NCBI GenBank assembly: GCA_028699085.1 | Contig: JAQVVF010000001.1 | Coordinates: 28,333 to 92,332, forward strand | Reading direction: 5' to 3' | Length of the DNA stretch: 64,000 nucleotides | Source of the DNA: Patescibacteria group bacterium | GTDB lineage: Bacteria; Patescibacteriota; JABMPQ01; JAQVVF01 | Shown here: positions 217-64,000 of the stretch, in pieces | Layout of the letters: each line of letters opens with the position of its first letter | How positions within the stretch are numbered: position 1 is the stretch's first letter | Notes under the pieces: generated by a model | The model's input: only the letters and a program-made list of their open reading frames with translations | Database searches by the model: none | What the model was told of the DNA's origin: nothing | Program-made: the position numbers and the translations under genes

Positions 217-243
217 CACTCAAAACATTAGAGTGCCAAATAT

Positions 244-1572: not shown

Positions 1573-1584
1573 TTTTTTAAGGAT

Positions 1585-1636: not shown

Positions 1637-1644
1637 ATAAAAAT

Positions 1645-2058: not shown

Positions 2059-2074
2059 TAGAATCTCAGAAATC

Positions 2075-2110
2075 GGAATTCAGAAATTAGAATTTCCGTT
2101 TCTGAATTCC
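2075..2110. promoter_or_regulatory. Perfect 12-bp inverted repeat GGAATTCAGAAA-N12-TTTCTGAATTCC upstream of dnaK
   Basis: Read directly. It shares the CAGAAA/TTTCTG arms with the palindrome upstream of hsp20. A related word (CAGAATTTAGAATTTCG) recurs at 55120-55150 upstream of ybaB. Confidence 0.5.
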
Positions 2111-2211
2111 ATTCTAGATTTTATTAAATCTAATTATATTAACAATTTAATCCGTATTCGAATATGTATTCGAGTAATAATATTCGGAATTGGATTAAAA
2201 AAGAATAAATT

Positions 2212-4140: not shown

Positions 4141-4151
4141 TATAATATTTT

Positions 4152-4175
4152 GGGGGCGGAAATAATTTCGCCCCC
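4152..4175 (+). terminator. GC-rich stem-loop GGGGGCG-N10-CGCCCCC after dnaK (weak U-tract)
   Basis: 7-bp G/C stem read directly. Only two T residues follow, so this may be a partial terminator or attenuator ahead of dnaJ. Confidence 0.45.
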
Positions 4176-4185
4176 TTGAATAATC

Positions 4186-4320
4186 AATTACCAAGAAACA
4201 AGAAACAAGCAATAGTCAATAACCAAATTAAAATAATCAAACTCGTCGAATCGTTTGTCGGTTTGGTTATTGATAAATTGAAATTTGTTTGTATCTTGTT
4301 TCTTGTATCTTGGTTATTTT
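4186..4320 (+). repeat. Copy 1 of a roughly 130-nt structured intergenic repeat (outer arms ACAAGAAACAAG / CTTGTTTCTTG; inner AATAACCAAA / TTTGGTTATT; apex CAAACTCGTCGAATCGTTTG)
   Basis: Aligns with copies at 40660-40797 and 49984-50113. All three lie between co-directional plus-strand genes. Confidence 0.75.
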
Positions 4321-4331
4321 AAGAATCAAAA

Positions 4332-5471
4332 ATGGCAAAAGATTACTACGAAATATTAGGTGTTACTAAAGATTCATCAGAAGATGAAATTAAAAAAGCT
4401 TTTTATAAAAAAGCTCATCAATATCATCCTGATAAAAAAACAGGTAACGCTGAAAAATTTAAGGAAGCTAATGAGGCTTACCAAGTTTTGTCTGATAAAG
4501 AAAAAAAATCACAATATGATCAATTCGGTCAAACTTTCGAGCAGGCTCAATCAGGAGGTGGATCTTATGGGGGGAATCCTTTTAGCGGTTTTAATGGTCA
4601 AGGTTTCAATGTCAATATGGAAGATTTTGATTTAGGTGATATTTTTTCATCTTTTTTCGGTGGCAAAAGAAAATCAAAGGGCACTAGAAATGCAGTGGCT
4701 GGCAATGATATTAGCATTGATCTAAATATTAATTTTGAAGATCCAGCCAAAGCTTTAGAAAAAGAAATTGAATTGTATAAAAAAATAAAATGTGATCGCT
4801 GTACAGGACAAGGTAATGAACCAGGCACGAAAATTAATACTTGTAAGAATTGTCAAGGCAGTGGTCAAGTAACGCAAGCTCGTCAAACAATGTTTGGCGT
4901 ATTTTCGCAAGCTACAATTTGTCCAGAATGCCAAGGCAATGGACAGATATTCGAACAAAATTGTACAAAATGCAAAGGCAAAGGCCAAGTTCAAGGATAT
5001 GAAAAAGTATCAATCAATATTCCGGCCGGAATTAGAGACGGCCAAACGCTAGAATTGAGCAACAAAGGAGAAGAAGGACAAAAAGGCGGACCAGCTGGCA
5101 ATTTATATATTTCAATTCATGTTGCTTCTCACAAATATTTCAAGAGAAAAGAGGATAATTTAATTTACGAACTGCCTCTTAGCTTTACTCAAGCAGCATT
5201 AGGCGATGAAATTGAAATTCCTACTCTTAACAGCAATATTGCTTTAAAAATTCCAGCTGGAGTTCAGACTGGAAAAATTTTTGTTATCGATGGCAAAGGC
5301 TTTCCACATTTGAATCAGCAAGGAGCCGGAGATTTATTAATTCCTGTTCGAGTTATTACTCCAACAAAATTGAATAAAAAAGAAAAAGAATTGTTGTTAG
5401 AATTAGCAAAGAATAATGGTCAAACAGTTAAAGTCAAAAAGAAAAACTTTTTTCATGATTTATTTGAGTAA
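4332..5471 (+). CDS. dnaJ: Chaperone DnaJ
   Basis: J-domain with HPD motif (YHPDKK), G/F-rich linker, four CxxCxGxG zinc-finger repeats. Confidence 0.9.
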
Positions 5472-6332: not shown

Positions 6333-6372
6333 AAATTTATCATTTATAATTTGTAATTTTTAATTAGATATT

Positions 6373-6443
6373 GGGTCCGTAGCTCAATGGTAGAGCTGTA
6401 GCCTTTTAAGCTATAGATAAGAGTTCGATTCTCTTCGGACCCA
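6373..6443 (+). tRNA. tRNA-Lys (anticodon UUU)
   Basis: Cloverleaf folded by hand: acceptor GGGTCCG/CGGACCC, D-arm GCTC-AATGGTA-GAGC, anticodon stem GTAGC/GCTAT with loop CTTTTAA (TTT at 6405-6407), T-arm AAGAG-TTCGATT-CTCTT, discriminator A. No CCA is encoded. Confidence 0.8.
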
Positions 6444-6597
6444 AAAATATAATTTCTGGTTGCCAGAGTTCCGGAACGTCAGAACGACCGAAATGTCAAA
6501 TTTATTTAGGTTAATAATCTGCATATGAAGGCAGTTTTTTGTTGTCAAAATTTAGCTATTCCGAAATTCCGAAGCTCCAATTTCCAAAGTTCTAAAA

Positions 6598-10710: not shown

Positions 10711-12186
10711 ATGGCAAATAATGATATATCCGTTTTCGCAACGACAAACTATCGTAACAAAAAAGTAGTTTTTGGTATCAAGCGCGATGATCGTCGCAGA
10801 CACATGTATGTGATTGGAAAAACTGGCATGGGCAAAACAAACCTTATGGAAAATATGGCGATTTCTGATATTCGTGCTGGTAATGGTATTTGTGTTGTCG
10901 ATCCGCATGGCGAGTTTGCTGAGAGAATGTTAGATTTTGTGCCTGCTAATCGTATTAACGATGTTATCTATTTTAATCCAGGTGATATGGATTATCCAAT
11001 TGCTTTTAATGTTATGGAGAATATCAATCCTGCATATAAACATTTAATATCATCAGGACTTATCGGCGTTTTTAAAAAAATCTGGGCCGATTCCTGGGGT
11101 CCTCGTCTTGAATATGTTTTAAGAAATTCAATTTTAGCCTTACTCGATTATCCAGGCTCAACAATGCTTGGCATTATGAGAATGCTTGTAGATAAAGAAT
11201 ACCGAAAAAAAGTTATTGATAAGATACAAGATCCAGTAGTCAAGCAATTCTGGGTTGAAGAATATTCAAAATATCCAGATAAATTTCAAACAGAAGCAAT
11301 CGCACCTATCCAAAATAAAGTCGGACAATTTTTATCAATTTCCTTAATCAGAAACATTGTTGGCCAGTCAAAGTCTACAATTGATATGCGTGAAGCAATG
11401 GACACAAAGAAAATTCTAATCCTCAATCTAGCAAAAGGAAGAATTGGTGAAGATGCTTCAGCATTATTTGGCGCTGTCATTATAACCAAGATTCAATTAG
11501 CCGCCATGTCTCGTGTTGATATTCCGGAAGAAGAGAGAGCTGATTTTTATCTTTATGTCGATGAGTTCCAGAATTTTGCAACTGAATCATTTGCTGATAT
11601 TTTATCCGAAGCTAGAAAATATCACTTGAATTTAATTATCGGCCATCAATATATCGGGCAATTAGAAACAGGAGGATCAACAAAAGTACGTGATGCTGTT
11701 TTTGGCAATGTCGGTACAATTGCTTGTTTTAGAGTTGGTGCAGCTGATGCTGAATTTTTAGTCAGCGAATTTGAACCAATTTTTACTGAAATTGATTTAG
11801 TTAACCTAACAAAATATAATATCTATCTGAAATTAATGATTGATGGTGTTGCTTCTCAAGCATTCAGTGCTACCACCTTACCGCCATCTACAAGAAAAGA
11901 GGGCAATGCTGAAAAAATTATTAAAGTTTCGCGTGAACGATATGCGACTGACCGCAAGATTGTTGAAGAAAGAATTTCTAAATGGTCAGAAAATATTGTC
12001 AGAGATGAAGCAACAATGCCACAAGCAAGATTTTTTCCAAAGAAAAAAGAAGCTCAGCAAAGTCATCAACCTTTCAAAAAAGCATTTGGTGAAATCTTCA
12101 AACAAAAATTACAAAAAGAAGAAACCAAGCAAGAAGAAAAACCAAGAGAGACATTAAAGCCAGGACAAGTAATAAAAATGGATTAG
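10711..12186 (+). CDS. P-loop NTPase of the FtsK/HerA/TraD-VirD4 (coupling-protein-like) superfamily, with a K/E-rich C-terminal tail
   Basis: Walker A (VIGKTGMGKT) preceded by DDRRRHMYVIG, Walker B (LYVDEFQNF), and motifs VVDPHGE and GHQY. Paralog of the C-terminal half of the 61742 ORF. Confidence 0.65.
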   Translation: MANNDISVFATTNYRNKKVVFGIKRDDRRRHMYVIGKTGMGKTNLMENMAISDIRAGNGICVVDPHGEFAERMLDFVPANRINDVIYFNPGDMDYPIAFNVMENINPAYKHLISSGLIGVFKKIWADSWGPRLEYVLRNSILALLDYPGSTMLGIMRMLVDKEYRKKVIDKIQDPVVKQFWVEEYSKYPDKFQTEAIAPIQNKVGQFLSISLIRNIVGQSKSTIDMREAMDTKKILILNLAKGRIGEDASALFGAVIITKIQLAAMSRVDIPEEERADFYLYVDEFQNFATESFADILSEARKYHLNLIIGHQYIGQLETGGSTKVRDAVFGNVGTIACFRVGAADAEFLVSEFEPIFTEIDLVNLTKYNIYLKLMIDGVASQAFSATTLPPSTRKEGNAEKIIKVSRERYATDRKIVEERISKWSENIVRDEATMPQARFFPKKKEAQQSHQPFKKAFGEIFKQKLQKEETKQEEKPRETLKPGQVIKMD

Positions 12187-12264: not shown

Positions 12265-13377
12265 ATGCAAAAGCATGTCATTTGTGCAATGTCTGGCGGA
12301 GTAGACAGTAGTGTCGCTGCCGCATTATTAAAAAAGCAAGGTTTTAAAGTAACCGGTGTTTTTATGCGCTTTTGGCATGAACAAAATAACAAAACCTGTG
12401 CAACAAATAGATGCTGTTCTCAAGATTCATTTGATTCTGCAAGACAAGTTTGCCAGAAATTAGGCATTAGATTATATTCGCTTAATTGTGAAAAAGAATT
12501 TAAAAATCATGTTGTTGATTATTTTTTGGATTATTCTAAAAAAGGTTTGACGCCAAATCCTTGTATTGCTTGTAACAAACACATTAAGTTTGGATTCTTG
12601 ATTAAGAAATTACAGGAACTTAATGCTGATTATTTGGCTACAGGACATTATGCTCAAGTCAAAAGTCAAAAGTCAAAAGTCAAAAGCGACAAGGAAAAAG
12701 TAAAAAAAACATATAAACTTTTACGGTCTAAAGATAAAAATAAAGACCAATCATATTTTCTATATAATTTAAATCAAAAAAAACTAGCCAGGATTTTATT
12801 CCCAATTGGAAATTATACTAAACCAGAAGTCCGTGAATTAGCGAAAAACTTTGGTTTGCCAACAGCCTCAAAAGAAGAATCGCAAGAAATTTGTTTTATT
12901 CAAGAAAAAAATTATCATAACTTTTTAAAAAGAAATTTAAAAAAAATCAAACCAGGTAAGATTAAAACAGTAAGCGGCAAAACAATAGGCGAACATCAGG
13001 GCTTATGTTTTTATACTATTGGCCAAAGAAAGGGAATAGGGCTTGGTTTAGAAAAAACTTTTTATGTTGCCAAGCTTGATTTTAAGCACAATATTTTATA
13101 TGTCACAGATAATCCGGATGATAAGCAATTATTTAGTAAAATAATTAAATTAAAAAATTTGAATCTAATAGGGGAAAGACTGACTCTCCCCTATTCTTGC
13201 CAAATAAAAATTCGTTCACATGCCTCGCCTGTTTCAGGAAAAATTATTAAAATAAACAAAAATCAAGCAATTATTTCCCTGCTTTCTTCTGTTCGTGCCG
13301 TAATGCCTGGACAATCTGCAGTTATTTATAAAAGAGAAATTTTAATTGGCGGAGGAGTCATTGCAAAAGCAGAGTAA
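12265..13377 (+). CDS. mnmA: tRNA-specific 2-thiouridylase MnmA
   Basis: PP-loop SGGVDSS motif and a Cys-containing catalytic region. Contains a K-rich insertion encoded by a heptamer repeat. Confidence 0.85.
   Translation: MQKHVICAMSGGVDSSVAAALLKKQGFKVTGVFMRFWHEQNNKTCATNRCCSQDSFDSARQVCQKLGIRLYSLNCEKEFKNHVVDYFLDYSKKGLTPNPCIACNKHIKFGFLIKKLQELNADYLATGHYAQVKSQKSKVKSDKEKVKKTYKLLRSKDKNKDQSYFLYNLNQKKLARILFPIGNYTKPEVRELAKNFGLPTASKEESQEICFIQEKNYHNFLKRNLKKIKPGKIKTVSGKTIGEHQGLCFYTIGQRKGIGLGLEKTFYVAKLDFKHNILYVTDNPDDKQLFSKIIKLKNLNLIGERLTLPYSCQIKIRSHASPVSGKIIKINKNQAIISLLSSVRAVMPGQSAVIYKREILIGGGVIAKAE
12657..12685 (+). repeat. Heptamer tandem repeat (GTCAAAA) x4 inside mnmA
   Basis: Read directly. It encodes QVKSQKSKVKS within a low-complexity loop. 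Confidence 0.8.
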
Positions 13378-13436
13378 TTGTTTTAAAATAGAAATAACAA
13401 ATAGTCAAAAATTTTAATTATAATTATTTTAAACCT

Positions 13437-13640
13437 ATGGATTTTACCGATCCAAAACGTCTTTTGCAATCAAAACTGGATGATTTTCGTGATGATATCG
13501 ATGAAAGGGAAAAAGAGCTTCGTGAAATAGATGGACAGCTCAAGGAATTAAGTAGAAAAAAGGAGCTCTTAGAAGCAGAATTAGAAGAGTTTTATGCTGA
13601 AGAAAAAAGATTGCAACAAGAAGTAAAGCGTCCAGAATGA
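13437..13640 (+). CDS. Small charged coiled-coil protein (67 aa), hypothetical
   Basis: ORF with heptad-like E/K/L content. No SD. Could be spurious. Confidence 0.3.
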   Translation: MDFTDPKRLLQSKLDDFRDDIDEREKELREIDGQLKELSRKKELLEAELEEFYAEEKRLQQEVKRPE

Positions 13641-23506: not shown

Positions 23507-24937
23507 TTAAAATAAAGCATCATCCTCCGAAATTCTTGTTTCAAATAAATATTTATCTTGATTCAAAAATATCAAATTTTCGCCCTTAAGGTCAGGAGCA
23601 AAATCAGAAATCATAAAGTTATTAAATGTATACATATTTTTAGTGCTTCTTTCATCTAATTCAATCACGTTCAATCTCTTATCAATATTATACAAAACAT
23701 GCTCAAAATCTGGATACCAAATTGCTTTTTCAATTTTTGTTTGTGATCTAGCAATCAAATTTGCATTATTAATTTTGTATTCATTATGAATTATCGGAAT
23801 ATCAGAAGCACGATTTATCAACTCATAAAACCACATTTCAACATCATTATAATATAATAATTTATTTTCTTTTTCACTCCACACAAAACCTAATGGGTTT
23901 TCAAAAATTTTTGTTGCTAAAAAATCATTACTATTCTTTTTTTGTTTGACTAAATATAAAACATTATTTTCTAATTTGAATGCAACCGCATTCTTTAAAC
24001 CAACTTTAATTTCAACAATCTTAATGTTTTCAGGATTCTCAATTAAAAAAATATTAGATCCTAAAGAATTTTCTTTTGCTCTTTTTAAAACATATTTTTC
24101 ATTTTCAAATTTTTCTAAAAAAACATAATCATCACTGATCGCAAAATTTGAAACAGAAGTTAAAGCAACTGATGGAATTGATGAAGAGTCTGCATTATAG
24201 CTATACAAATTATCCTTATAGATCCAGTAAATCAAACTATCATTTTTCATTGACCAGTTAGGATTAGTTATTTCGTAACCAAAAACAGTATTCAAATTTA
24301 TAACTTTCTCAGAATTAGCAATCATATAATTCTTAGTCATTGATTTATCCTTCCAGCTAAAAAAAGCATATCTACCATTTAAAGATAATTTAAGATCAGA
24401 AAATTCTGCATTTTCGTAAATAACTGCATCGTCTTTTTCTGGAAAGATTTTGGTCAGTCTTGCTGAATCAATATTATATTCATATATGCCTTCTTTATCT
24501 TGATAGTTGCTTAACAAAAAAATCTTTTTTTCTGAAGCAATATATTTAAAATCATCAAATGTCTGATCCTTAACTAATTGTTTTAAGCTAGGATTTTCAT
24601 AGAACAATCTGACATGGCTTGCCCAATTGACCTTACCGCTTTTTACTGGCAATGTCTTTTTCCAAGCAAAAAAACCTTGTTTTTCAACTTTTATTTTATA
24701 ATTACCAGGAGTTAAAGAAGACGATTTAAATGGAGTACCATTATCAACAAATTTATTATTTAAAAATACATTAACGCTTTCTGGCTGGGACTCAACGACT
24801 AGCATACCGACCTTTGTAACTTCAAGTTTTCTAAAATCAAAACGAAAACCCATTGCATAAAAAACTAGCAATGGAGCGACAACAATAAAAATCAAAATAC
24901 TTAAAGTTAATAAAATTTGTCGATGCAATTTTCTCAT
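23507..24937 (-). CDS. Membrane-anchored PEGA-domain protein (476 aa)
   Basis: N-terminal TM helix. The PEGA-like segment (VVESQPESVNVFLNNKFVDNGTPFKSSSLTPGNYKIKVEKQGF) is present. Confidence 0.5.
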   Translation of the reverse strand: MRKLHRQILLTLSILIFIVVAPLLVFYAMGFRFDFRKLEVTKVGMLVVESQPESVNVFLNNKFVDNGTPFKSSSLTPGNYKIKVEKQGFFAWKKTLPVKSGKVNWASHVRLFYENPSLKQLVKDQTFDDFKYIASEKKIFLLSNYQDKEGIYEYNIDSARLTKIFPEKDDAVIYENAEFSDLKLSLNGRYAFFSWKDKSMTKNYMIANSEKVINLNTVFGYEITNPNWSMKNDSLIYWIYKDNLYSYNADSSSIPSVALTSVSNFAISDDYVFLEKFENEKYVLKRAKENSLGSNIFLIENPENIKIVEIKVGLKNAVAFKLENNVLYLVKQKKNSNDFLATKIFENPLGFVWSEKENKLLYYNDVEMWFYELINRASDIPIIHNEYKINNANLIARSQTKIEKAIWYPDFEHVLYNIDKRLNVIELDERSTKNMYTFNNFMISDFAPDLKGENLIFLNQDKYLFETRISEDDALF

Positions 24938-28952: not shown

Positions 28953-30815
28953 TTGATTATGAAAAAAAACAAAAAACAATTGTTATTAATTTTTCTATTT
29001 TTATTGATTGGCTCTCTAGGAATAGTAAAAGGTAGTTTAGCAGGAAGCTGGAGTGCCTTAAGTTCTGGTGTTAATAACTCGACTGCACTAGCTGTATACA
29101 ATAATGAATTATACGTCGGTGGTTCATTCTCAACTGCTGGCGGAATTACGGCCAATAACATCGCTAAATGGAATGGCACATCTTGGAGTGCGGTTGGTTC
29201 TGGCGTAAACCAAGGAGTTAATACACTAGCTGTATATAATAATGAATTGTATGCTGGAGGTTATTTCACAACTGCTGGCGGTAGTGCTGCATCTCATGTT
29301 GCTAAATGGAATGGCACTTCTTGGAGCGCGCTGAGTTCTGGCATTAACAGTCAGGCTTATGCAATGGCTGTTTACAATAATGAGCTCTATGTTGGTGGAA
29401 ATTTCACAACCGCTGGTGGTAATGTCGCATCTTATATTGCTAAATGGAATGGTGATTCCTGGAGCGCGCTAGGTACCGGAATGAATGCTGAAGTTGATTC
29501 CTTTACAGTTTATAATAACCAACTGTTCGTTGGCGGATTATTCTCAACTGCTAATGGGGTATCGGCAAATCGGATTGCGCAATTTGATGGCACTTCTTCT
29601 TGGAGTGCAGTAGGTTCAGGAATGGGGAGTGGCTATTATTATGTTTATGGCCTGACAGTTTATAACAATGAACTTTATGCAGCTGGAAATTTTACAACTT
29701 CTAGTGGCGCTCCATATAATTATCTAGCTAAATGGAACGGTTCCTCTTGGAGCTCTGTAGGTTCTGAAATGAATCAATCTATTAATGATTTAGCTGTTTA
29801 TAACGGTGAATTATATGCTGCTGGAGACTTCACGGCAGTTGGGGGTGTATCAACTGGTAGAATAGCCAGATGGAATGGTGCTTCATGGAATACAATAGAC
29901 CCAGGAACTAATAGTACCATCAATTCTTTAGCTACTTTTGGAGATGGATTATATGTGGGAGGAAATTTTTCTACTGCTGGTGGAAATACAGCGAATGGAA
30001 TTGCAAAATGGCTAGATGACATTGTAAGCCCTGTTACTACTGCTTCTCCGGCTGGTGGCACATATACAGAAAACCAGTCAGTTACTTTAACTGCTGTCGA
30101 TGTTAGTTCCAGTATTTCAGCAACCTATTACACAACCGATGGTTCAACTCCAACAACTTCTTCATTAGTTTATTCATCGCCAATTTCAATTACAGAAGAT
30201 ACAACATTGAAATTCTTTTCTGTTGATAGTGTCGGAAATACAGAAGAAGTTAAAACTGAAACATACATTATCAATAAAGATGATACTGCAGAAAAAGTAG
30301 CTGAAGCTGAAAGGAAATTAAAAAAAGGCAAAAAAATATATTTAGTTTCAGAATTAAATGGACAATCAATTTCTGGACAATCCCTGAAGATTACTTTTAC
30401 CAATTTGCCTTACAAGCTAACCAAAAATAGCAATTACTGGATTCAATTAGTCAAGCACAAAGCATATCCAGGCAGCCTCGAGCTCGGCTCGCATCTATCT
30501 TTGAAGAAATATTGGTTATTCAAAACTAATATTAATAAGTATAAAGTAAACAATTCAACACAGAAATTTAAAATCAAAATTGTATACAAATACACAGCCA
30601 AAGAATTAAAAGTTCTAAAAAATATTGAGCCTAGCCTGCCAACAAAAGATCTTAAACTCAAATATCGTGTCAAAGCTGGTTTGAATTGGTATCAACTTAA
30701 TAATCAATGGAAAAATGCAAAAGTAAAACACAACCTGTCAAAAAAGAAATTTACAGTAAAATATTTTAAGAAATTTCTCAAGAGCACCTATTACTTTGCG
30801 ATTATTAAGAAATAG
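28953..30815 (+). CDS. Secreted repeat protein: about 8 tandem 48-aa repeats (WNGTSWSALGSG...VYNNELYVGG.FTTAGG) plus a CHB_HEX_C-like domain and a K-rich C-terminus
   Basis: Signal peptide. The repeats are read directly. YTTDGSTPTTSS...FFSVDSVGN matches the chitobiase/beta-hexosaminidase C-terminal-like domain pattern. Confidence 0.6.
   Translation: MIMKKNKKQLLLIFLFLLIGSLGIVKGSLAGSWSALSSGVNNSTALAVYNNELYVGGSFSTAGGITANNIAKWNGTSWSAVGSGVNQGVNTLAVYNNELYAGGYFTTAGGSAASHVAKWNGTSWSALSSGINSQAYAMAVYNNELYVGGNFTTAGGNVASYIAKWNGDSWSALGTGMNAEVDSFTVYNNQLFVGGLFSTANGVSANRIAQFDGTSSWSAVGSGMGSGYYYVYGLTVYNNELYAAGNFTTSSGAPYNYLAKWNGSSWSSVGSEMNQSINDLAVYNGELYAAGDFTAVGGVSTGRIARWNGASWNTIDPGTNSTINSLATFGDGLYVGGNFSTAGGNTANGIAKWLDDIVSPVTTASPAGGTYTENQSVTLTAVDVSSSISATYYTTDGSTPTTSSLVYSSPISITEDTTLKFFSVDSVGNTEEVKTETYIINKDDTAEKVAEAERKLKKGKKIYLVSELNGQSISGQSLKITFTNLPYKLTKNSNYWIQLVKHKAYPGSLELGSHLSLKKYWLFKTNINKYKVNNSTQKFKIKIVYKYTAKELKVLKNIEPSLPTKDLKLKYRVKAGLNWYQLNNQWKNAKVKHNLSKKKFTVKYFKKFLKSTYYFAIIKK
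29040..30010 (+). repeat. In-frame tandem DNA repeats of about 144 bp (about 8 copies) inside the surface protein gene
   Basis: Periodic recurrence of aaatggaatggcac-ttcttggagtgc and tataataatgaattgtatg. Confidence 0.7.
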
Positions 30816-46237: not shown

Positions 46238-47473
46238 ATGAAAACAAAAATTATCATTTTTGCTTTCTCCTTGCTTTTACTGCTTCCAGTTGGCTTTGTA
46301 TCTGCTTATGATATCAGGAGCACAGAAGGAACAACAACAATCGAAAGCACAGAAACTGTTCAAGATGATTTAATGATTGCTGGGCAATCAGTTCAGATCG
46401 ATGGCGTAATTAGTGGTGATGTTTATGCTGTTGGTCAGACAGTTACAGTTAGTTCTAATGCAAAAATTTTAGGAAATCTTTTTACAGCTGGTCAAATAAT
46501 TAATATCGATGGAATTGTAGAAGGTGATCTTTTTACAGCAGGTGCAAATGTTAATATTACAGGTTCAGTAAAAAATGGCATCATGGCTTTTGCCGGAATG
46601 ATTTCAGTAGCTCCAAAAGCTACATTAGATAGCAACAATGCAACATTTTTTGGCGGAACTATAGATATCAGCAAAAATGCAAATTTTTCTAGAGACATGA
46701 TTGCAAATGGCGGAGCAATTAATTATAAAGGCACAGTTGATAATAATTTAACAATCAATGGCGGAACAGTTGACGTTTCTGGTTTAGTTAAAAAAGACGC
46801 AACGATCACAGCTTCAGAAAAAATGGTTTTTAATTCCGGTGCAAAAGTTGATGGAAATTTGAATTATTCATCTCCAAAGCAAGCTGAATTCAAAAACGGC
46901 TCACAAGTTGTTGGCGAAACAAAATTTACGCAATTAGTCGAAACACAGAAAAAAGCAGGAAAGAAAAACAGCATGAATTGGTTTGCGATGTCAGCTTTCA
47001 AAGTCGTAACAAATTTTATCTCAATGATTTCTTTGATGATTGTTGCGATTGTAACAGCCGCAATTTGTAAGAAGTATAGTCTCAATGTTATTGATAAATT
47101 GAAAACAAAAACTTGGGCATCATTGGGTTGGGGATTATTAGTACTTTTTGTAACACCAATTGCTTTTATAATATTATTAATCACAATTTTAGGCATGCCG
47201 ATTGCTTTTCTGATTTTGCCAATCTACCTTGTTTTGATTTATTTTGCTAAGGTATTTGCTACAATCTGTACAGGCTATTTTATTCTCAAATCAATAGGCA
47301 AGAATGAACCAAATTTGATCTGGTCAGCAGTTCTTGGCGTTATTGTCTTGAGTATCATCATGATGATCCCATTTATCGGATTTTTGGCAAAATTAGCAGT
47401 AATTTCACTTGGAATTGGAGCTATGGTTTTAGCTTTGAAGGCATATCACAAAAATTCATCAGCAAAAGCCTAA
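46238..47473 (+). CDS. Signal-peptide protein with bactofilin-like beta-helix repeats and a C-terminal 4-TM domain
   Basis: Repeated G.V.I.G.V.GD-type units (VQIDGVISGDVYAVGQTVTVSS...). C-terminal hydrophobic helices. Confidence 0.45.
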   Translation: MKTKIIIFAFSLLLLLPVGFVSAYDIRSTEGTTTIESTETVQDDLMIAGQSVQIDGVISGDVYAVGQTVTVSSNAKILGNLFTAGQIINIDGIVEGDLFTAGANVNITGSVKNGIMAFAGMISVAPKATLDSNNATFFGGTIDISKNANFSRDMIANGGAINYKGTVDNNLTINGGTVDVSGLVKKDATITASEKMVFNSGAKVDGNLNYSSPKQAEFKNGSQVVGETKFTQLVETQKKAGKKNSMNWFAMSAFKVVTNFISMISLMIVAIVTAAICKKYSLNVIDKLKTKTWASLGWGLLVLFVTPIAFIILLITILGMPIAFLILPIYLVLIYFAKVFATICTGYFILKSIGKNEPNLIWSAVLGVIVLSIIMMIPFIGFLAKLAVISLGIGAMVLALKAYHKNSSAKA

Positions 47474-58143: not shown

Positions 58144-58494
58144 ATGGGACTGATAGTTGGAATCATTGTTGTCATCATACTTATTTTTGGAGTCTTTTTT
58201 GTTCTTGGCGCTGCAATTGGCGGAATCTTAGGAGTTCTTGGCGTTGTCGCTTTGATTTGGATTACCGCTGGATTTATTATTTCCAATACTAAAGAAGGCA
58301 GTATTAGCGCAATAGTTGGTATTATTGCTTTAGTTTTGACTATCCTTTTCTTTTCAACTGGAGCTTGTAAGCATGTATATGTTGCATGCAATAATGTTCC
58401 TTATGGCGTTTTAGATTCCATCAGTCCATTCCCAGGAAAATCAATGGTCTGTAACGGAAAAGTAGTTTGGAGATCAAACGGAAAATGTCCATGA
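58144..58494 (+). CDS. Small membrane protein (116 aa) with a Cys-rich C-terminus, SD GGAGGA
   Basis: Three hydrophobic helices followed by C...C...C...C. A terminator follows at 58524-58554. Confidence 0.4.
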   Translation: MGLIVGIIVVIILIFGVFFVLGAAIGGILGVLGVVALIWITAGFIISNTKEGSISAIVGIIALVLTILFFSTGACKHVYVACNNVPYGVLDSISPFPGKSMVCNGKVVWRSNGKCP

Positions 58495-58581: not shown

Positions 58582-59988
58582 TTATCTCATGTCTCCACTA
58601 TTTCTAACATCAGCTCTCTTCATCGGCCACCAATTTTTTCCTGATTTATCATAAAAATCAGATAGATTCCAGATATAAACAGAATTATCAGTTAGGCTAG
58701 AAATAACTTCTAGAACCTTATTATTATCAATATCAGATAAAGTTGGATAAGTTAAAAAATTTCCGCCAGAAGATTCCGTCATTAATGGCCAGCTATCTTT
58801 GATAGCATCGCCATTATTTTTCCAAGCATAAATTCTATCATCAGCAGTACCTAAGATTTCGCAACTTCCATCATTATCAACATCAGCTAGATTTACAAAT
58901 TTTATGCCCTTATCAGATTTCTTTGGCCAGCCTTTTATTTCAGCTCCGAAATTACCAAGAACATGAACACCAGATTTATTTGCAAAAGCAATATTTGCAA
59001 TTCCATCGCTATCAATATCTCCAAGTGCAAGATCAGAAACCCCATCTTCATTATTTATTGTTAAAATCTGCTGACCATCTTTTGTATAGACTAAAATACT
59101 ATTTTCTTTCGTGCTTACAATAATATTAGAGTCAGCTTTATTTATAACATTACCTAATACAATTTCCATATCTACAGATTGCGAATTAATTTCCTGCGGA
59201 AATCCAGATAGCATCTGTCCATCTTCTTTTGCCACAAAAAGATTTGTTTTCCCAGATGATAAAGCTGTATAAATAATTTCTGATTTTGTATCATTATTCA
59301 AATCTCCAGAAGCTACTGAAGAATTAATTTTTTCGCCTGTTTCTTTCGGCCAACCAGAAATTATTAAACCATTATCTGAAAGTGCATAAATTATCCTGTC
59401 TCCAAAAGCAATTACTTCCATTTTATTATCTGATGTAATATTAGAAATTACAGGAGTATTCTCATTGCCTAAATTGCTCAGAGCTCTTGGCCAGCCTTCA
59501 ATAATTTCAGCATCACCGGAAAAAGCGTATATCGAATTACTTGTTCCAATTATAACATCTAACTTGCCGTCTGCATTCAAGTCAGCAATCGATGGAGTTG
59601 ATTTTCCTAAATATTCATCAATCTTAATAGGCCAATTTGGAACTTCTGATCCGTCATCATTTAGAGCATAAATCAGATGATCGCTTGTGCCAAAAATAAT
59701 TTCTGGTTTTTTGTCCGCATCAATATCGCCAACGGTTGTTCTTGAAGGTATTCCGCTAATACTTCTTGGCCAGCCTGCTTTATAAACCAAAACAGGAAAC
59801 AAATCCTTGATATTTGGACCTTGATTTTTCTTCTTTACAATTGATTGAGGAATGATTGGTTCGTTTTTGTAGGCACCTTTATAAACAGTGTATCCCATTG
59901 CTGCCATCATTGCAGCACCAGCAAATAAAACGCCAATCAAAGTCCCAACACGAACCTTAGTTTTTGTTTGTGTCAGTGTCTCTGGCAT
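58582..59988 (-). CDS. Membrane-anchored FG-GAP/VCBS-repeat beta-propeller protein
   Basis: N-terminal TM helix. Repeated D.D.DG-type FG-GAP motifs (ADLNADGKLDVIIGT, GDLNNDTKSEIIYTA, GDIDSDGIANIAFAN, ADVDNDGSCEILGTA). Confidence 0.55.
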   Translation of the reverse strand: MPETLTQTKTKVRVGTLIGVLFAGAAMMAAMGYTVYKGAYKNEPIIPQSIVKKKNQGPNIKDLFPVLVYKAGWPRSISGIPSRTTVGDIDADKKPEIIFGTSDHLIYALNDDGSEVPNWPIKIDEYLGKSTPSIADLNADGKLDVIIGTSNSIYAFSGDAEIIEGWPRALSNLGNENTPVISNITSDNKMEVIAFGDRIIYALSDNGLIISGWPKETGEKINSSVASGDLNNDTKSEIIYTALSSGKTNLFVAKEDGQMLSGFPQEINSQSVDMEIVLGNVINKADSNIIVSTKENSILVYTKDGQQILTINNEDGVSDLALGDIDSDGIANIAFANKSGVHVLGNFGAEIKGWPKKSDKGIKFVNLADVDNDGSCEILGTADDRIYAWKNNGDAIKDSWPLMTESSGGNFLTYPTLSDIDNNKVLEVISSLTDNSVYIWNLSDFYDKSGKNWWPMKRADVRNSGDMR

Positions 59989-60020
59989 AATTTTTTATTT
60001 AGTTATTTTTTATTTAGTTA

Positions 60021-61136
60021 TTATTCAACGTCCTTGCCAATCCATTCTTCCAATACATCTTTGATATCAATTGCTTTAACTTCAGGAAGTTTTGTTCCAG
60101 CTTTATCTTCTTGTGCTGATAATTGTAACCGTTCAATCTTTTCGTTAATTGCTAATTCTTTCTGTGACAATTTTTTAATCTCAATTTCATCAGTTGATTT
60201 TTCTCTTTTTTGCTGAACATCTGAAAGTGTAGCTTCTAATTGTTTTATTTTTCCAGGAGCATCAATAATCTGTAATCTAACCATAGCTGAAGATTCATCA
60301 ATTAGATCAATAGCTTTATCAGGCAAATATCTATTTTTAATATACTTATCAGATAATTTCGCGGCAGCTTCAATTGCATCAGAAGAAATAATAACTTTAT
60401 GATGATCTTCGTAAACTTTCTTCAAACCATCTAATATTCTTATTGTCATCAAAACATCAGGCGGGTCAACCATTACTGGTTGAAAACGTCTTTCTAAGCT
60501 TGCTTCTGGTTTTATATATTGATTATATTCATCTAACGTTGTTGCACCAACAGCCTGTAAATCGCCGCGAGCTAATGCTGGCTTAATAATATCCGAAGGA
60601 TCCAAAGCTCCTTCAGCGCCTTTTGATTGGACAATTAAATGGACTTCATCAATAAACAATATAATAGTTCTATTGGAAGCTTTAAGCTCATCCATTACTT
60701 TTCTTAACCTTTGTTCAAATTCACCTCTGTATTTTGTTCCTGCAATTAAACTGCTGACATTCAATGCTAGTACTCTTTTATTTTGCAAACTTTCTGGCAC
60801 TTTTTTTTCTACAATTCTTTGCGCTAAACCTTCCACAATTGCCGTTTTTCCAACACCAGCTTTTCCTAATAAAATTGGATTATTTTTAGTTCTTCTAGAT
60901 AATATCTGGGTAATTCTCTCTATTTCCGATTCGCGGTCAATGACAGGATCTAATTTTTTGTCTCTTGCATCAGCTGTAACATCTATAGAATAAGAATCTA
61001 GTATTGGTGTTTTACCTCCGCCAGAGATTTTAGAGCCAGATCCTGGAGACCTTTTAAATCGATCGCGATTTAGCCAAATTAAATAAGCAATCGCTACAAC
61101 AACTAAAAAAATAATTGCCCATATGCTTGTCGTCAT
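60021..61136 (-). CDS. Membrane-anchored AAA+ ATPase corresponding to the ClpB/ClpC first nucleotide-binding domain (NBD1) plus the start of the middle domain. There is no NBD2
   Basis: N-terminal TM helix. Strong collinear similarity to ClpB NBD1 (NPILLGKAGVGKTAIVEGLAQRIV, ILFIDEVH, GATTLDEYNQYIKPEASLERRFQPV, LPDKAIDLIDE). The ORF ends after the coiled-coil start. Confidence 0.6.
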   Translation of the reverse strand: MTTSIWAIIFLVVVAIAYLIWLNRDRFKRSPGSGSKISGGGKTPILDSYSIDVTADARDKKLDPVIDRESEIERITQILSRRTKNNPILLGKAGVGKTAIVEGLAQRIVEKKVPESLQNKRVLALNVSSLIAGTKYRGEFEQRLRKVMDELKASNRTIILFIDEVHLIVQSKGAEGALDPSDIIKPALARGDLQAVGATTLDEYNQYIKPEASLERRFQPVMVDPPDVLMTIRILDGLKKVYEDHHKVIISSDAIEAAAKLSDKYIKNRYLPDKAIDLIDESSAMVRLQIIDAPGKIKQLEATLSDVQQKREKSTDEIEIKKLSQKELAINEKIERLQLSAQEDKAGTKLPEVKAIDIKDVLEEWIGKDVE

Positions 61137-61269
61137 ATAAATTTTATTTTAATTTTAAAAATTGATAGCCAACTAACTATAAAAACATTATATAACAAAT
61201 TATTAAAAAATAAAAATATTTGTTGCATTTTAAAAATATGCTATTATAACAATAAGTTAATCTTTACCC

Positions 61270-61737
61270 ATGATAAAAAACATACAAGAAAAAACTCCAC
61301 AAGGAAAAGAGCCTCAAGATGTAGAATCAGAAATCGAAAGGTTAAAAAGAGATTTAGCAGAAAAGGAAAAAGCTCTCAAGGAACAAAAAGAAATAAAACC
61401 AGAAGCAGAAACGCTCAAGCCAGAAAAACAGGAGCAAGAAGAAGTTACAAAAGCTGAAGAAAAAAAGGAAACCTCAGAAGCGCCTAAAAAAGAAAAAGCA
61501 CCAGAACAATTATCTCCAAGAATGAATGATCCTGAAATTTTAAAAGAACTAACCGAACTTAAAGAATCAGGACAACCGAGGCAAGTCATTGAGCTTGCTT
61601 ATCTTGCTTTTGAAAAGGGTACTTCCTATGCGCTTGATATTGCTAACAAAACAAAAGATCCTTCTATTATTGCGGGATTTCGTGGTATACTAACTAGTAA
61701 GTTGGGCGAAAGATTAAAAGAAAAAAACAAACTTTAA
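61270..61737 (+). CDS. Hypothetical K/E-rich protein (155 aa), immediately upstream of the fused membrane-ATPase gene
   Basis: ORF with a charged low-complexity N-terminal half. The 4-nt gap to the next gene suggests an operon. Confidence 0.35.
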   Translation: MIKNIQEKTPQGKEPQDVESEIERLKRDLAEKEKALKEQKEIKPEAETLKPEKQEQEEVTKAEEKKETSEAPKKEKAPEQLSPRMNDPEILKELTELKESGQPRQVIELAYLAFEKGTSYALDIANKTKDPSIIAGFRGILTSKLGERLKEKNKL

Positions 61738-61741
61738 AAAA

Positions 61742-64000
61742 TGCAAAATCAAATCGAAAACATAACTAGTTCTATAAACGAGTCGTATCTTGGCATTATT
61801 TTTATTACTGCAGTTTTTCTTGTCGGAATATTATTAATTATCAGCTTATTAAAAATAATGCGAAAAAGGAATATTATTCCACATTCTTTGAATATGGTTA
61901 CTTTGCTAATTTCTGTCCCAAGAGAAGTCAAGCAAGTTACAGAAGAAGCAAAAAAAGAAGAAAAAGAAATGATTTCAATCGCAGAAACAATGTTTGCTAA
62001 TATCTATTCTATTGAAACTGCGTCGAATGGTTTGATGTCTGGACTCTATGGAAAAGAATATGTTTCTTTTGAAATAGTCGCCATTAACGGTGAGATTCGT
62101 TTTTATGTCTCTACTCCGAAAAGATTGCAGGATTATATTGAAAAGACAATTCATTCTCAATATCCGAAAGCCTATATTTCCGAAGAAGGCGAGTACAATG
62201 TGTTTAAACCCAAAAGTCAAGTTAGGGGTGTTATGCTTGTAACTGAAAAACAAAACTATTTGCCATTTAAAACATATCAAACAATAGAAACCGATCCTCT
62301 GAATGCTATTACAAATGCATTAAGCAAATTAGATGAAAAAACAGAAGGGGCAGCAATTCAATATTTAATTAGACCAGCTGGAAAAAAATGGATGAAAAAA
62401 GGTCCTCATATTGCTAGAGAAATGCAACGCGGAAAAACTTATGAATATGCATCAGCAAGCCTTTTAGGCAAACTTTTTAAAAGAAAAGAAGAAGGCAAAT
62501 CTAGTGTCCTAGAGCAAGCAGTGTTGCCTGGAGCTTCAGAACAACAAATGTCTGGAGGAGCGCCAATGCTTTCTCCGATGATTCAAGAACAAATTAAAGC
62601 TTTGGAAGTAAAATCTTCTAAGCTTGGTTTTGAAACAAATATTAGAATTATTTCCTCATCAGATTTAGATACAAAAGCAGAAGCAAATTTAAGAAATATT
62701 GTCGGCGCTTTTACAGAATATACGGATCCAAACCTGAACAAATTTGTTGAAAAGAAATTGAATGTTCAGAAACTAATTCAGGCTTTCATTTTTCGCACTT
62801 TTGACGAAAAAAGAAAAAGCATTTTGAACACTGAAGAATTAGCATCTGTATTCCATTTGCCGACAAAATTTGCCGAAACACCAAATATTCATTGGCTATT
62901 AGCAAGAGATGCTCCGGCTCCACATAATGTTCCTAAAGAAGGATTATTATTAGGTAAAAACACATTTCGAGGTATCGAAACACCTATTCGGATTAAAGAT
63001 GATGATCGAAGAAGACACATGTATATTATTGGCCAAACTGGTGTTGGTAAATCAAACTTTTTACAAAACATGATTGTTCAAGATATTAAAGATGGCAAAG
63101 GTCTTTGCGTTGTTGATCCACATGGAGATTTAGTTGAAAGTGTCTTGCCATTTATTCCAAAAGAAAGAGTTGATGATATTATTCTTTTTGAACCTTTTGA
63201 TGTTAATCGACCGATGGGCTTAAATATGCTTGAATTTAAAACTGAAGACCAAAAAGATTTTGCTGTCCAGGAAATGATGCAAATTTTTTACAAACTATTT
63301 CCGCCAGAAATGATTGGCCCAATGTTCGAGCATCAAATGAGAAATGTCATGCTGACATTAATGGCTGACAAAGAAAATCCTGGAACTTTAGCCGAAATTC
63401 CAAGAATGTTCACAGATAATGAATATGCCAAAGAATGGATTGAAAAATTGAAAGATCCTGTTGTTAAAGCTTTTTGGGAGAAAGAAATGGCAAAGACTTC
63501 AGATTTTCACAAATCAGAAATGCTTGGTTATCTAATTTCTAAAGTTGGTCGTTTTGTTGAAAATGAAATGATGAGAAATATAATTGGCCAAAGCCATTCT
63601 TCTTTTGATCTTAGAAAAATCATGGATGAGGGTAAAGTCTTGCTTGTAAATTTATCAAAAGGAAAAATTGGTGAAACAAATTCTTCTTTATTAGGCTTAA
63701 TTATTGTTTCTAAAATTCAGATGGCAGCTTATTCACGTGCTGATATTCCAGAATCAGAAAGAAAAGACTTTTATTTATACGTTGATGAGTTCCAAAATTT
63801 TGCTACCGACAGTTTTGCTTCAATATTATCCGAAGCCAGAAAATACAGACTTAATTTAATCGTCGCTCACCAATATGTTAAACAGCTTGAAGAGAAGATC
63901 AGAGATGCTGTCTTTGGAAATGTCGGTACTTTTACTGCATTTCGTGTTGGTGTAGAGGATGCTGAGATTGTCGCCAAAGAGCTTGAACCTGTTTTTACAG
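61742..64000 (+). CDS. Fused single-TM membrane domain plus TraD/VirD4-like P-loop ATPase (partial, runs off the window end)
   Basis: Hand-translated open frame from the ATG at 61742 with no stop to 64000. The N-terminal 430 aa is paralogous to the 9406 protein. The C-terminal part is paralogous to the 10711 ATPase (DDRRRHMYIIGQTGVGKS, VVDPHGD, LYVDEFQNF, AHQY). Confidence 0.6.

What the first reader, a model, noticed from the sequence alone, without database searches (positions are those of the whole stretch)
60021..61136. Membrane-anchored ClpB-like ATPase with only the first AAA+ module
The protein is collinear with ClpB/ClpC NBD1 through the beginning of the coiled-coil M-domain. The N-domain is replaced by a TM helix, and NBD2 and the C-terminus are absent. 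The ORF ends cleanly. Either this is a novel membrane-tethered single-ring unfoldase, perhaps acting with a membrane protease, or it is a decaying clpB. Its neighbour is an FG-GAP surface protein and no adjacent NBD2 fragment was seen.
Basis: partly seen in the sequence, partly recalled or inferred. Interest (0 to 1): 0.55.

Follow-up and report, generated by a model that had tools for sequence, protein, structure and literature searches.

The report
Membrane-anchored one-ring ClpC-like ATPase family
This is an intact, conserved gene of ultra-small Patescibacteria (CPR) encoding only the first motor ring of a ClpC-type protein unfoldase tethered to the cell membrane by one helix, an undescribed architecture that probably pulls proteins off or out of the membrane.

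Summary
The ORF at 60021-61136 (-), 371 aa, is real and intact. It has an N-terminal transmembrane helix, a flexible tether of about 35 residues, and a complete ClpC-type first AAA+ module: large subdomain, lid, short coiled-coil M-domain and the final lid helix. It ends in a tandem stop (TAA TAA) at the D1/D2 junction. It is closer to ClpC than to ClpB, and it contains the whole short M-domain, not just its beginning.

It is not a decaying clpB:
- No NBD2 or Clp-N remnant exists in any frame of the window or of seven relatives' loci.
- Relatives at 70-75% identity, and even at 48% (Doudnabacteria), carry the same short gene in the same chromosomal slot.
- dN/dS is about 0.05.
- All catalytic and pore-loop motifs are invariant in 29 members.
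- The D1-only proteins form one clade (50/50 bootstraps) next to full-length CPR ClpC.

All named members are Patescibacteria. They are annotated only as "AAA family ATPase", and I found no literature on them.

The most likely function (inferred, not shown) is a ClpP-independent hexameric unfoldase or extractase whose entry face points at the membrane, with the geometry of FtsH without its protease, or of Msp1. The FG-GAP neighbour is a clade-specific insertion and not a conserved partner. Whether these genomes also encode a D2-containing Clp ATPase could not be determined.

The parts
60021..61136 (-). Complete gene for the 371-aa TM-anchored D1-only ClpC-like ATPase (NCBI MDD3887234.1, annotated 'AAA family ATPase [Patescibacteria group bacterium]')
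   Evidence: ORF listing, domain hits, exact match in the protein collection
61071..61133 (-). Residues 2-22: N-terminal transmembrane helix. It has no basic residues before it and is followed by RDRFKR, so the predicted topology is N-out, C-in (a signal anchor, not a cleaved signal peptide).
   Evidence: KD17 = 2.82, net charge +3 after the helix, and the same pattern in all 29 members. AF2 helix at 2-22. Residue identity is poorly conserved (0.42) but hydrophobicity is conserved.
61011..61070 (-). Residues 23-42: basic patch plus a Gly/Ser-rich flexible tether
   Evidence: AF2 pLDDT is below 50 for residues 27-40. Family-wide, 32-55 residues (median 37) separate the hydrophobic segment from the LDPVI motif that opens D1.
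60459..61010 (-). Residues 43-226: ClpC-type TPxLD linker motif and the D1 large (alpha/beta) subdomain. It contains Walker A G91-T98 (GKAGVGKT), pore loop G133-E141 (GTKYRGEFE), Walker B D163-E164, sensor-1 T199-T200 and Arg fingers R216-R217.
   Evidence: All these residues are invariant in the 29 sequences. Region conservation is 0.80. It aligns to ClpC residues 151-345.
60267..60458 (-). Residues 227-290: D1 small (lid) subdomain, including the invariant LPDKAIDLIDE motif
   Evidence: PF17871 AAA_lid_9, E = 1.1e-28. Conservation is 0.74.
60099..60266 (-). Residues 291-346: short ClpC-type M-domain, a helical coiled-coil hairpin
   Evidence: AF2 helices 293-313 and 317-346. It aligns to the ClpC M-domain up to residue about 470. 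Length is conserved (94 residues from LPDKAID to EW.G in 17 of 29 members) but sequence is variable (0.41).
60024..60098 (-). Residues 347-371: the last D1 lid helix (P..V...DI..I..EW.G motif) plus a 4-residue tail. This is the D1/D2 junction of two-ring Clp ATPases.
   Evidence: It aligns to ClpC ..VTVDDIAMVVSSWTGVP (residues 475-487). AF2 helix at 355-366. Family tails after W.G are 4-32 residues long.
60018..60023 (-). Tandem stop codons TAA TAA
   Evidence: Read directly from the sequence
59989..60020 (-). 32-nt AT-rich spacer before the FG-GAP start codon. It contains a perfect tandem duplication of a 15-mer (59990-60019) and has no terminator-like site on the minus strand, so co-transcription is likely.
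61137..61269 (.). 133-nt AT-rich divergent intergenic region, the presumed promoter region. It contains no CIRCE operator.
58582..59988 (-). Downstream co-directional gene for a 468-aa membrane-anchored FG-GAP beta-propeller protein. It is a neighbour only in the window's own clade.
   Evidence: PF13517, E = 4.9e-20. Present after the ATPase gene in L008, L009 and L010 (49-51% identity). Absent from the syntenic Doudnabacteria locus L092 and from L001, L003, L005 and L093.

Best explanation
The gene encodes a functional, vertically inherited Patescibacteria-specific derivative of ClpC. This derivative has lost the N-domain and the whole second AAA+ ring (D2, and with it the ClpP-docking loop). 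It has gained a single N-terminal transmembrane anchor. SHOWN: the architecture; its conservation and single origin; strong purifying selection; intact ATP-binding, ATP-hydrolysis, arginine-finger and pore-loop residues; a structurally complete D1 module (large subdomain, lid, inserted short M-domain and closing lid helix); and a predicted N-out/C-in topology that places the ATPase in the cytoplasm. INFERRED from established Hsp100/AAA+ mechanism: six copies assemble into one ring on the inner face of the membrane, and tethering raises the local concentration to help a D1-only protein oligomerise. The TM helix joins the ring where the N-domain normally sits, which is the substrate-entry face, through a tether of about 35 residues. 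The pore entrance therefore faces the membrane. The conserved Tyr pore loops (GTKYRGEFE) thread polypeptides from the membrane side and release them into the cytoplasm without degrading them, because no ClpP can dock. The likely substrates are membrane-embedded, mis-inserted, translocon-stalled or membrane-associated aggregated proteins. In effect this is 'FtsH without the protease', or a bacterial analogue of Msp1/ATAD1. The variable coiled coil probably acts as a regulatory or assembly element, as it does in ClpC, rather than as a conserved adaptor-binding site.
For: The architecture recurs in at least 35 proteins at 46-89% identity and in roughly ten clusters at 50% identity. All named members are Patescibacteria: Uhrbacteria, Doudnabacteria and the Parcubacteria group. 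Walker A/B, the pore loop, sensor-1, the Arg fingers and LPDKAID are invariant in all 29 aligned members. dN/dS is 0.046 and 0.055 between orthologues. Every member has a hydrophobic helix followed by positive charge. AF2 gives pLDDT 84.8 with a TM helix, a disordered tether, the AAA core, the lid, the hairpin and a terminal helix. The best structural and sequence matches are ClpC residues 151-487. The same short gene occupies the same chromosomal slot from the window's clade out to Doudnabacteria. The family is monophyletic in 50/50 bootstraps and is sister to full-length ClpC, including the Saccharibacteria one. No D2 or N-domain remnant is found in the window or in the seven family loci. 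The window protein has no ClpP-docking [ILVM]G[FL] tripeptide, and only 3 of 29 members have any such tripeptide. The statement that the N-domain side is the substrate-entry face of ClpB/ClpC rings, and the FtsH and Msp1 geometries, rest on established knowledge. Msp1 is described as a membrane-anchored AAA+ extractase in PMC12793716, and FtsH as the only known membrane-anchored AAA+ protease family in PMC8943139.
Against: There is no biochemical evidence. Hexamer formation by a D1-only Hsp100 is not guaranteed: from my recollection of the literature, which I did not check here, isolated ClpB NBD1 fragments oligomerise poorly and ClpC needs MecA. No conserved gene neighbour points to a substrate class or partner. 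The gene is not linked to the HrcA/CIRCE heat-shock regulon, although the window carries that regulon. Topology comes from hydropathy and the positive-inside rule only. I could not establish whether a D2-containing Clp ATPase or ClpP exists elsewhere in these genomes.
Confidence: 0.6

Rival explanations
1. Split ClpC. The D2 half is encoded elsewhere in the genome and re-associates with this D1 half to rebuild a two-tier, possibly ClpP-coupled, machine at the membrane.
For: The protein ends exactly at the D1/D2 junction and keeps the start of the inter-ring linker (EW.G followed by I/P..K.I). Genomes outside the 64-kb window and the +/-10-kb loci could not be inspected.
Against: No D2 gene is adjacent in any of seven independent lineages, whereas a genuine split clpC (L011) has its D2 ORF overlapping the stop codon. 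D2 probes find nothing in the window or the family loci. Among the 120 best matches to a CPR ClpC D2, the D2-sized entries inspected are fragments or internal-Met halves of ordinary ClpC. None of the 120 has a TM helix, and none lies on a contig with the length of a family-bearing contig. The N-domain was also replaced, which a simple fission would not predict.
Confidence: 0.1
2. A dedicated biogenesis or quality-control factor for large surface proteins. It would unfold or hold neighbouring secreted proteins such as the FG-GAP propeller before or during export.
For: The FG-GAP gene follows 4-32 nt downstream in the window and in L008-L010, and no terminator is seen in the window spacer. L001 and L003 have a divergent 1250-aa CLIPPER/SdrD_B surface protein. 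L005 and L093 have CARDB and TSP3/DUF3048 secreted proteins nearby.
Against: The neighbours belong to different protein families in different lineages. The syntenic Doudnabacteria locus has no FG-GAP gene at all. CPR genomes are generally rich in such surface proteins, so adjacency may be chance. No statistical enrichment was computed.
Confidence: 0.12
3. A non-translocating regulatory or scaffolding subunit, for example one that recruits or co-assembles with a full-length ClpC, FtsH or another machine at the membrane.
For: Full-length ClpC exists in other Patescibacteria (L048 Saccharibacteria; P0317 Parcubacteria group). M-domains mediate ClpC-ClpC and adaptor contacts (established knowledge).
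Against: The pore-loop Tyr, the Walker B Glu and both Arg fingers are invariant, which argues for an active threading motor and not a scaffold. The M-domain, which would be the contact surface, is the least conserved region (0.41).
Confidence: 0.08
4. A decaying clpB/clpC pseudogene, or an assembly or frameshift artefact.
For: None beyond the missing domains.
Against: A tandem stop at a domain boundary. The same length in at least 35 proteins from independent assemblies. dN/dS of about 0.05. Invariant catalytic residues. Conserved synteny. No remnants in other frames.
Confidence: 0.01

Closest known systems
ClpC (Bacillus subtilis / Staphylococcus aureus ClpC, Mycobacterium ClpC1), class I Hsp100/Clp ATPase
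   Same: The D1 module with a short single coiled-coil M-domain inserted in the lid. The PDB sequence search scores 358 bits over ClpC residues 151-487, and Foldseek structural alignments show 44-51% identity. The TPxLD linker, pore loop, Arg fingers and junction motif are the same.
   Different: It has no Clp_N domain, no D2 ring, no ClpB_D2-small domain and no ClpP-docking loop. No UVR-type Pfam hit (PF02151) is recorded in the M-domain of the short family members, unlike many full-length ClpC hits. It has an N-terminal TM anchor instead of the N-domain. It scores below every NCBIfam Clp cut-off.
ClpB / Hsp104 disaggregases
   Same: A homologous D1 (about 300 bits) and a coiled-coil insertion at the same site. 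A DnaK-DnaJ-GrpE system, the usual ClpB partner, is encoded in the window.
   Different: The ClpB M-domain is about twice as long, and ClpB alignments stop at query residues 335-348. There is no D2 and no N-domain, and the protein is membrane-anchored.
FtsH
   Same: An N-terminally membrane-anchored AAA+ ring in the bacterial cytoplasm, with the pore entrance facing the membrane. This is a functional analogy resting on established knowledge and PMC8943139.
   Different: FtsH has two TM helices with a periplasmic domain, a classic-clade AAA module and a fused M41 protease. Here there is one TM helix, an Hsp100 D1 module with an M-domain, and no protease.
Msp1 / ATAD1
   Same: A single N-terminal TM anchor, one AAA+ ring and no protease. 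Msp1 extracts membrane proteins from bilayers (PMC12793716).
   Different: Msp1 is eukaryotic (mitochondrial outer membrane and peroxisome), belongs to a different AAA clade and has no coiled-coil M-domain. The similarity is architectural convergence, not orthology.
Skd3 / human CLPB
   Same: A naturally single-ring Hsp100 that works without a second ring and without ClpP (my own knowledge, not checked here).
   Different: Skd3 keeps D2 rather than D1 and has ankyrin repeats. It is mitochondrial, and its N-terminal hydrophobic segment is removed by processing.

Membership tests
AAA+ ATPase superfamily | P-loop Walker A, Walker B, sensor-1, arginine finger and an alpha-helical lid | tested here: met
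   PF00004 and PF17871 hits. GVGKT, DE, GATT and RR are invariant. The AF2 fold matches ClpC/ClpB D1.
Hsp100/Clp class I, D1 module (ClpA/B/C D1 lineage) | A D1-type AAA module with the KYRGEFE pore loop and the LPDKAID lid motif | tested here: met
   In the NJ tree the family nests beside full-length ClpC D1 domains.
ClpC (as a family member or equivalog) | An N-terminal Clp_N repeat domain (PF02861) | tested here: not met
   No Pfam hit. A Clp-N probe finds nothing in the window. The N-terminus is a TM helix.
ClpC (as a family member or equivalog) | A short M-domain (single coiled coil) inserted in the D1 lid | tested here: met
   The alignment runs through ClpC residues 412-487. AF2 shows the hairpin at 293-346. 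The sister-clade spacing is of the ClpC type.
ClpC / ClpB / ClpA (two-ring Hsp100) | A second AAA+ ring D2 (PF07724 AAA_2) plus ClpB_D2-small (PF10431) | tested here: not met
   There is no Pfam hit, and the ORF stops at the D1/D2 junction. D2 probes are negative in all frames. NCBIfam scores are 387 against 1232 (ClpB) and 329 against 993 (ClpA).
ClpP-coupled unfoldases (ClpA, ClpC, ClpX) | A ClpP-docking loop with an [ILV]G[FL] tripeptide | tested here: not met
   The window protein has no such tripeptide, and only 3 of 29 members have one anywhere. In ClpC this loop lies in D2, which is absent here.
FtsH | A C-terminal Peptidase_M41 domain with an HEXXH motif | tested here: not met
   No Pfam hit beyond AAA and the lid.
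Msp1/ATAD1-like membrane extractases (functional class, not homology) | ATP-dependent extraction of membrane proteins by a TM-anchored single AAA ring | not testable with these tools
   Only the architecture (TM anchor, one ring, no protease) is shown. The activity needs biochemistry.
HrcA/CIRCE heat-shock regulon | A CIRCE operator upstream of the gene | tested here: not met
   CIRCE is found only at 190-239, upstream of hrcA. None is found in the seven family loci.
Known anti-phage defence systems (PADLOC) | A specific match to a defence-system protein model | tested here: not met
   Only generic weak P-loop matches (TRIP13 1.3e-5, IetA 1.7e-4).

The most novel reading that the evidence does not exclude
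In these reduced Patescibacteria the TM-anchored D1-only protein has replaced the canonical two-ring ClpC/ClpB as the only Hsp100. It would act as a bacterial Msp1-like extractase that removes mis-inserted or stalled proteins from the cytoplasmic membrane without a protease. That would show a single Hsp100 D1 ring to be a self-sufficient translocation motor.
Probability: 0.3. Interest if true: 0.75.

Novelty: new variant of a known kind. Interest (0 to 1): 0.55.

Why it matters
Hsp100/Clp unfoldases are textbook two-ring machines (ClpA/B/C) or D2-like one-ring machines (ClpX, HslU, Skd3). As far as I could find, a naturally occurring, conserved, D1-only Hsp100 tethered to the membrane has not been described. 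If it is active, three things follow. It would be a natural experiment on whether the D1 ring alone can translocate substrates, which so far has been addressed only with engineered truncations. It would add a second kind of membrane-anchored AAA+ quality-control motor in bacteria besides FtsH, this one without a protease. It would also shed light on how CPR bacteria, which have tiny genomes and envelopes rich in surface proteins, maintain membrane proteostasis. At 371 aa, the protein is also a compact and tractable target for structural work.

Tried and rejected
- **GTDB genome scan.** Its only useful product was L048, a full-length Saccharibacteria ClpC.
- **D2 homolog search.** The D2-sized entries I inspected were fragments or internal-Met halves of ordinary ClpC. 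The result is inconclusive for absence.
- **Top scorers of the representative search, P0121-P0125.** These are internally duplicated or chimeric assemblies and were discarded.
- **P0006 (643 aa).** It looked like a close full-length relative, but it is a frameshift-split clpC from a non-CPR genome. I used it only as a positive control for what a real split gene looks like.
- **CIRCE/HrcA control of the gene.** Rejected.
- **Defence-system membership.** Rejected.
- **Promoter and terminator scan.** Counts equal the shuffled expectation, so the scan is uninformative except for the absence of a minus-strand terminator between the two genes.
- **Literature.** Six full-text searches found no description of this architecture.
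- **First tree attempt.** It timed out, so I redid it with numpy distances.
Full report
**1. The observation**

The window contains an ORF at 60021..61136 on the minus strand that encodes 371 aa.

- Pfam assigns only an AAA domain and the Clp-type lid AAA_lid_9 (E = 1.1e-28). It finds no Clp_N, AAA_2 or ClpB_D2-small.
- The NCBIfam models for ClpB, ClpV/TssH, ClpG, ClpA and ClpK all match only their D1 portions, and the scores are roughly a third of their cut-offs or less.
- Against PDB sequences the best hits are B. subtilis and S. aureus ClpC (358 and 338 bits), ahead of ClpB (about 304) and ClpA (about 229). The ClpC alignment runs from residue 151 to 487.
- The protein therefore contains the TPxLD linker, the whole D1 large subdomain, the lid, the complete short ClpC-type M-domain and the final lid helix (..DIKDVLEEWIG, aligned to ClpC ..DIAMVVSSWTG). 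It stops four residues later.
This is a structurally complete ClpC-type D1 module.
- The stop is a tandem TAA TAA.

**2. The transmembrane helix**

- Residues 4-20 give a 17-residue Kyte-Doolittle mean of 2.82. No basic residue precedes them, and RDRFKR follows (net charge +3). Nothing elsewhere in the protein exceeds 1.16.
- AF2, run with the family alignment, gives a confident model (mean pLDDT 84.8). It shows a helix at 2-22, a disordered segment at 27-40, the AAA core, the lid, a helical hairpin at 293-346 and a closing helix at 355-366.
- Foldseek against the PDB ranks ClpC first (9a66, 9rai) and ClpB second.
- The long hydrophobic stretch, the missing n-region and the positive charge after the helix indicate an N-out/C-in signal anchor with the ATPase in the cytoplasm. 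This is an inference from the positive-inside rule.

**3. It is not a pseudogene**

*NBD2 remnants*
- The protein itself finds no second Clp-like segment in the window.
- A genuine D2 taken from a split clpC (L011) and a D2 from a Saccharibacteria ClpC (L048) give only noise in the window. The best E-values are 0.17 and 0.07, and the second falls on the gene's own P-loop region.
- Neither D2 probe finds a D2 remnant in the family loci examined (L001-L010 for the first probe, seven family loci for the second). The Clp N-domain probe, run against the window and the seven loci, finds nothing.
- The control works: in L011 the D2 ORF overlaps the stop codon of the upstream half.

*The same position in relatives*
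- In L008/L009 (72% identity) and L010 (70%), the same 358-361-aa gene is followed by the FG-GAP gene and then CysS, DnaB, YbaB and RecR, as in the window.
- In a Doudnabacteria genome (L092, about 48% identity) the same slot (TrwB-like ATPase, small K/E-rich protein, CorA, this gene, CysS, DnaB, YbaB, RecR) again holds a D1-only gene of 440 aa.

*Selection*
- Nei-Gojobori dN/dS is 0.046 (window against L008) and 0.055 (L008 against L010). Synonymous sites are near saturation.

**4. A conserved family**

- The homolog search returned about 35 proteins of 330-462 aa with the same domain content at 46-89% identity.
- A profile search of 1.84 billion representatives added P0127, P0128, P0132, P0139, P0165, P0166 and P0233. 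That brings the family to roughly ten clusters at 50% identity.
- In a 29-sequence alignment every member has the N-terminal hydrophobic helix followed by a basic patch. The invariant features are Walker A GVGKT, the pore loop GTKYRGEFE, Walker B DE, sensor-1 GATT, the arginine fingers RRFQ and LPDKAID.
- Majority-residue frequency by region is 0.80 for the D1 large subdomain, 0.74 for the lid and 0.56 for the last helix. It is only about 0.41 for the TM helix, the tether and the coiled coil.
- Lengths are constrained. The tether is 32-55 residues (median 37). The distance from LPDKAID to EW.G is exactly 94 residues in 17 of 29 members. Tails after W.G are 4-32 residues.
- All named members are Patescibacteria: Uhrbacteria (UniProt A0A1F7ULY7), Doudnabacteria, the Parcubacteria group and the "Patescibacteria group".
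- The window protein is MDD3887234.1, on a 211-kb contig. Cluster mates at 90% identity or more lie on contigs of 645 and 654 kb, and a more distant member lies on a 1.05-Mb contig.
- The annotations are generic: "AAA family ATPase" or "Clp protease ATP-binding subunit".

**5. Origin**

- I built an NJ tree on 254 D1 columns from 28 family members and 34 full-length two-ring proteins. The family is a single clade in 50 of 50 bootstrap replicates.
- Its sister group contains the full-length Saccharibacteria ClpC (L048) and three proteins with ClpC-type M-domain spacing. Two of those carry a ClpE-like zinc-ribbon N-terminus.
- A Parcubacteria-group fragment (P0317) also carries an M-domain and D2 in one chain.
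- The D1-only form therefore looks like a single, old derivation from a CPR ClpC-type ancestor and not the general CPR state. The caveat is that this is an NJ tree on taxa selected as best hits.

**6. Neighbourhood and regulation**

- No partner gene is conserved across lineages.
- FG-GAP follows the ATPase gene only in the window's own clade.
- L001 and L003 have a divergent 1250-aa surface protein. L005 sits after rplJ-rplL. L093 precedes DUF3048 and TSP3 secreted proteins. L092 has two tiny ORFs.
- Surface or secreted proteins are frequent neighbours, but they belong to different families. I did not test enrichment.
- In the window the 32-nt spacer to FG-GAP has no terminator-like site on the coding strand, so co-transcription is plausible.
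- The window carries hrcA-grpE-dnaK-dnaJ with two tandem CIRCE operators at 190-239 (0 expected by chance). There is no CIRCE near this gene or in the seven family loci. No link to the HrcA heat-shock regulon is detectable.
- PADLOC gives only generic P-loop noise.

**7. Mechanism**

*Shown*
- The gene is intact and under selection.
- The protein is a membrane-anchored, catalytically complete ClpC-type D1 module with pore loops and trans-acting arginines.

*Inferred*
- It forms a hexameric ring on the cytoplasmic face of the membrane.
- The TM helix replaces the N-domain at the same linker. In ClpB and ClpC the N-domain side is the substrate-entry face of the ring (established structural knowledge).
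- The pore entrance should therefore face the membrane at the end of a tether of about 35 residues. This is the geometry of FtsH and of Msp1/ATAD1.
- There is no D2 and no [ILVM]G[FL] docking tripeptide, so ClpP cannot dock in the known way. The motor would release its substrates and not degrade them.
- I consider membrane-proximal unfolding or extraction the most likely function (confidence about 0.6 for the whole statement). Confidence is above 0.9 for "functional conserved TM-anchored D1-only ATPase" and about 0.45 for "membrane-protein extractase/unfoldase".

*Rivals*
- A split ClpC with D2 encoded elsewhere (0.1).
- A dedicated surface-protein biogenesis factor (0.12).
- A non-threading scaffold or regulator (0.08).
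- A pseudogene (0.01).

**8. What remains open**

- I could not inspect the rest of these genomes, so I do not know whether they also encode a D2-containing Clp ATPase, ClpP, FtsH or Lon.
- The D2 search found no stand-alone or TM-anchored D2 family and no D2 protein on a family-bearing contig. It lists only 120 of 8000 scored candidates, so it cannot prove absence.
- Six literature searches found no description of this architecture. One FtsH paper calls FtsH the only known membrane-anchored AAA+ protease family (PMC8943139), and Msp1 is the eukaryotic paradigm of a protease-less TM-anchored extractase (PMC12793716).

**9. Verdict**

- The "novel membrane-tethered single-ring" interpretation is supported, and the "decaying clpB" interpretation is rejected.
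- This is a new variant of a known kind: an Hsp100/ClpC derivative with an undescribed domain architecture, apparently restricted to Patescibacteria.
- Interest is moderate to good (0.55). It would rise if the protein proves to be the sole Hsp100 of these organisms and an autonomous translocase.

Noticed in passing
window 190-5471: A complete heat-shock operon: hrcA (244-993), grpE (1099-1572), a 137-aa ORF (1645-2058), dnaK (2212-4140) and dnaJ (4332-5471). Two overlapping tandem CIRCE operators precede it at 190-216 (1 mismatch) and 213-239 (3 mismatches), with 0 expected by chance.
   Followed up: partly
window 61270-64000 (+): A 155-aa Lys/Glu-rich protein (61270-61737) is followed immediately by an open frame of at least 754 aa (start about 61741) that runs off the window. 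The long frame has an N-terminal TM segment, the P-loop GQTGVGKS, and TrwB_AAD_bind/DUF87 (HerA-like) hits, with PADLOC mad8 at 2e-16. Homologues of the small protein lie beside a TrwB-like ATPase gene near the D1-only gene in L010 and L092. A second TrwB/DUF87-like ATPase (491 aa) lies at 10711-12186.
   Followed up: partly
window 59990-60019: A perfect tandem duplication of a 15-mer (ATTTTTTATTTAGTT x2) fills the spacer between the ATPase stop codon and the FG-GAP start codon. Its significance is unknown. It may be a slippage duplication or a translational-coupling or RBS-like element.
   Followed up: no
window 58144-58494 (+): A 116-aa ORF, very hydrophobic and Gly/Ile/Val-rich with a Cys-containing C-terminus, lies between the FG-GAP gene and cysS. 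It has no Pfam hit. The local GC skew flips to positive here, consistent with a real plus-strand gene.
   Followed up: no
L011 10001-13311: A frameshift-split clpC in a non-CPR genome (GCA_029782595.1). A 643-aa N-D1-M half has its stop overlapped by a 460-aa D2 ORF, and short duplicated segments flank it (tblastn hits at 11735-11926 and 13364-13465). It served as a positive control for a genuine split or pseudogene.
   Followed up: partly
proteins P0121-P0125 (representative library): The top-scoring 'relatives' in the 50% representative library are internally duplicated or chimeric D1 sequences, for example P0121 and P0122 with the same about 150-250-aa block repeated. They are probably assembly or gene-calling artefacts that inflate profile scores.
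   Followed up: partly
proteins P0142, P0211 (sister clade): Full-length two-ring relatives nearest to the family carry a ClpE-like CxxC...C zinc-ribbon N-terminus instead of Clp_N. Their taxonomy is unknown because no source names them.
   Followed up: no
L048 5530-7920: The Saccharibacteria full-length ClpC has an unusual D1 pore loop, GSKHRGDFE (His in place of the canonical Tyr).
   Followed up: no
window 28953-30815, 23507-24937, 46238-47473: Further probable envelope or cytoskeletal proteins. A 620-aa protein has CHB_HEX_C_1, Fn3_assoc and DUF5122 beta-propeller repeats. A 476-aa protein has a PEGA domain. A 411-aa protein has a bactofilin domain. This fits a genome rich in surface proteins, which weakens any inference from the ATPase's adjacency to surface-protein genes.
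   Followed up: no
window 6372-6444 (+): The only tRNA in the 64-kb window is tRNA-Lys(UUU).
   Followed up: no
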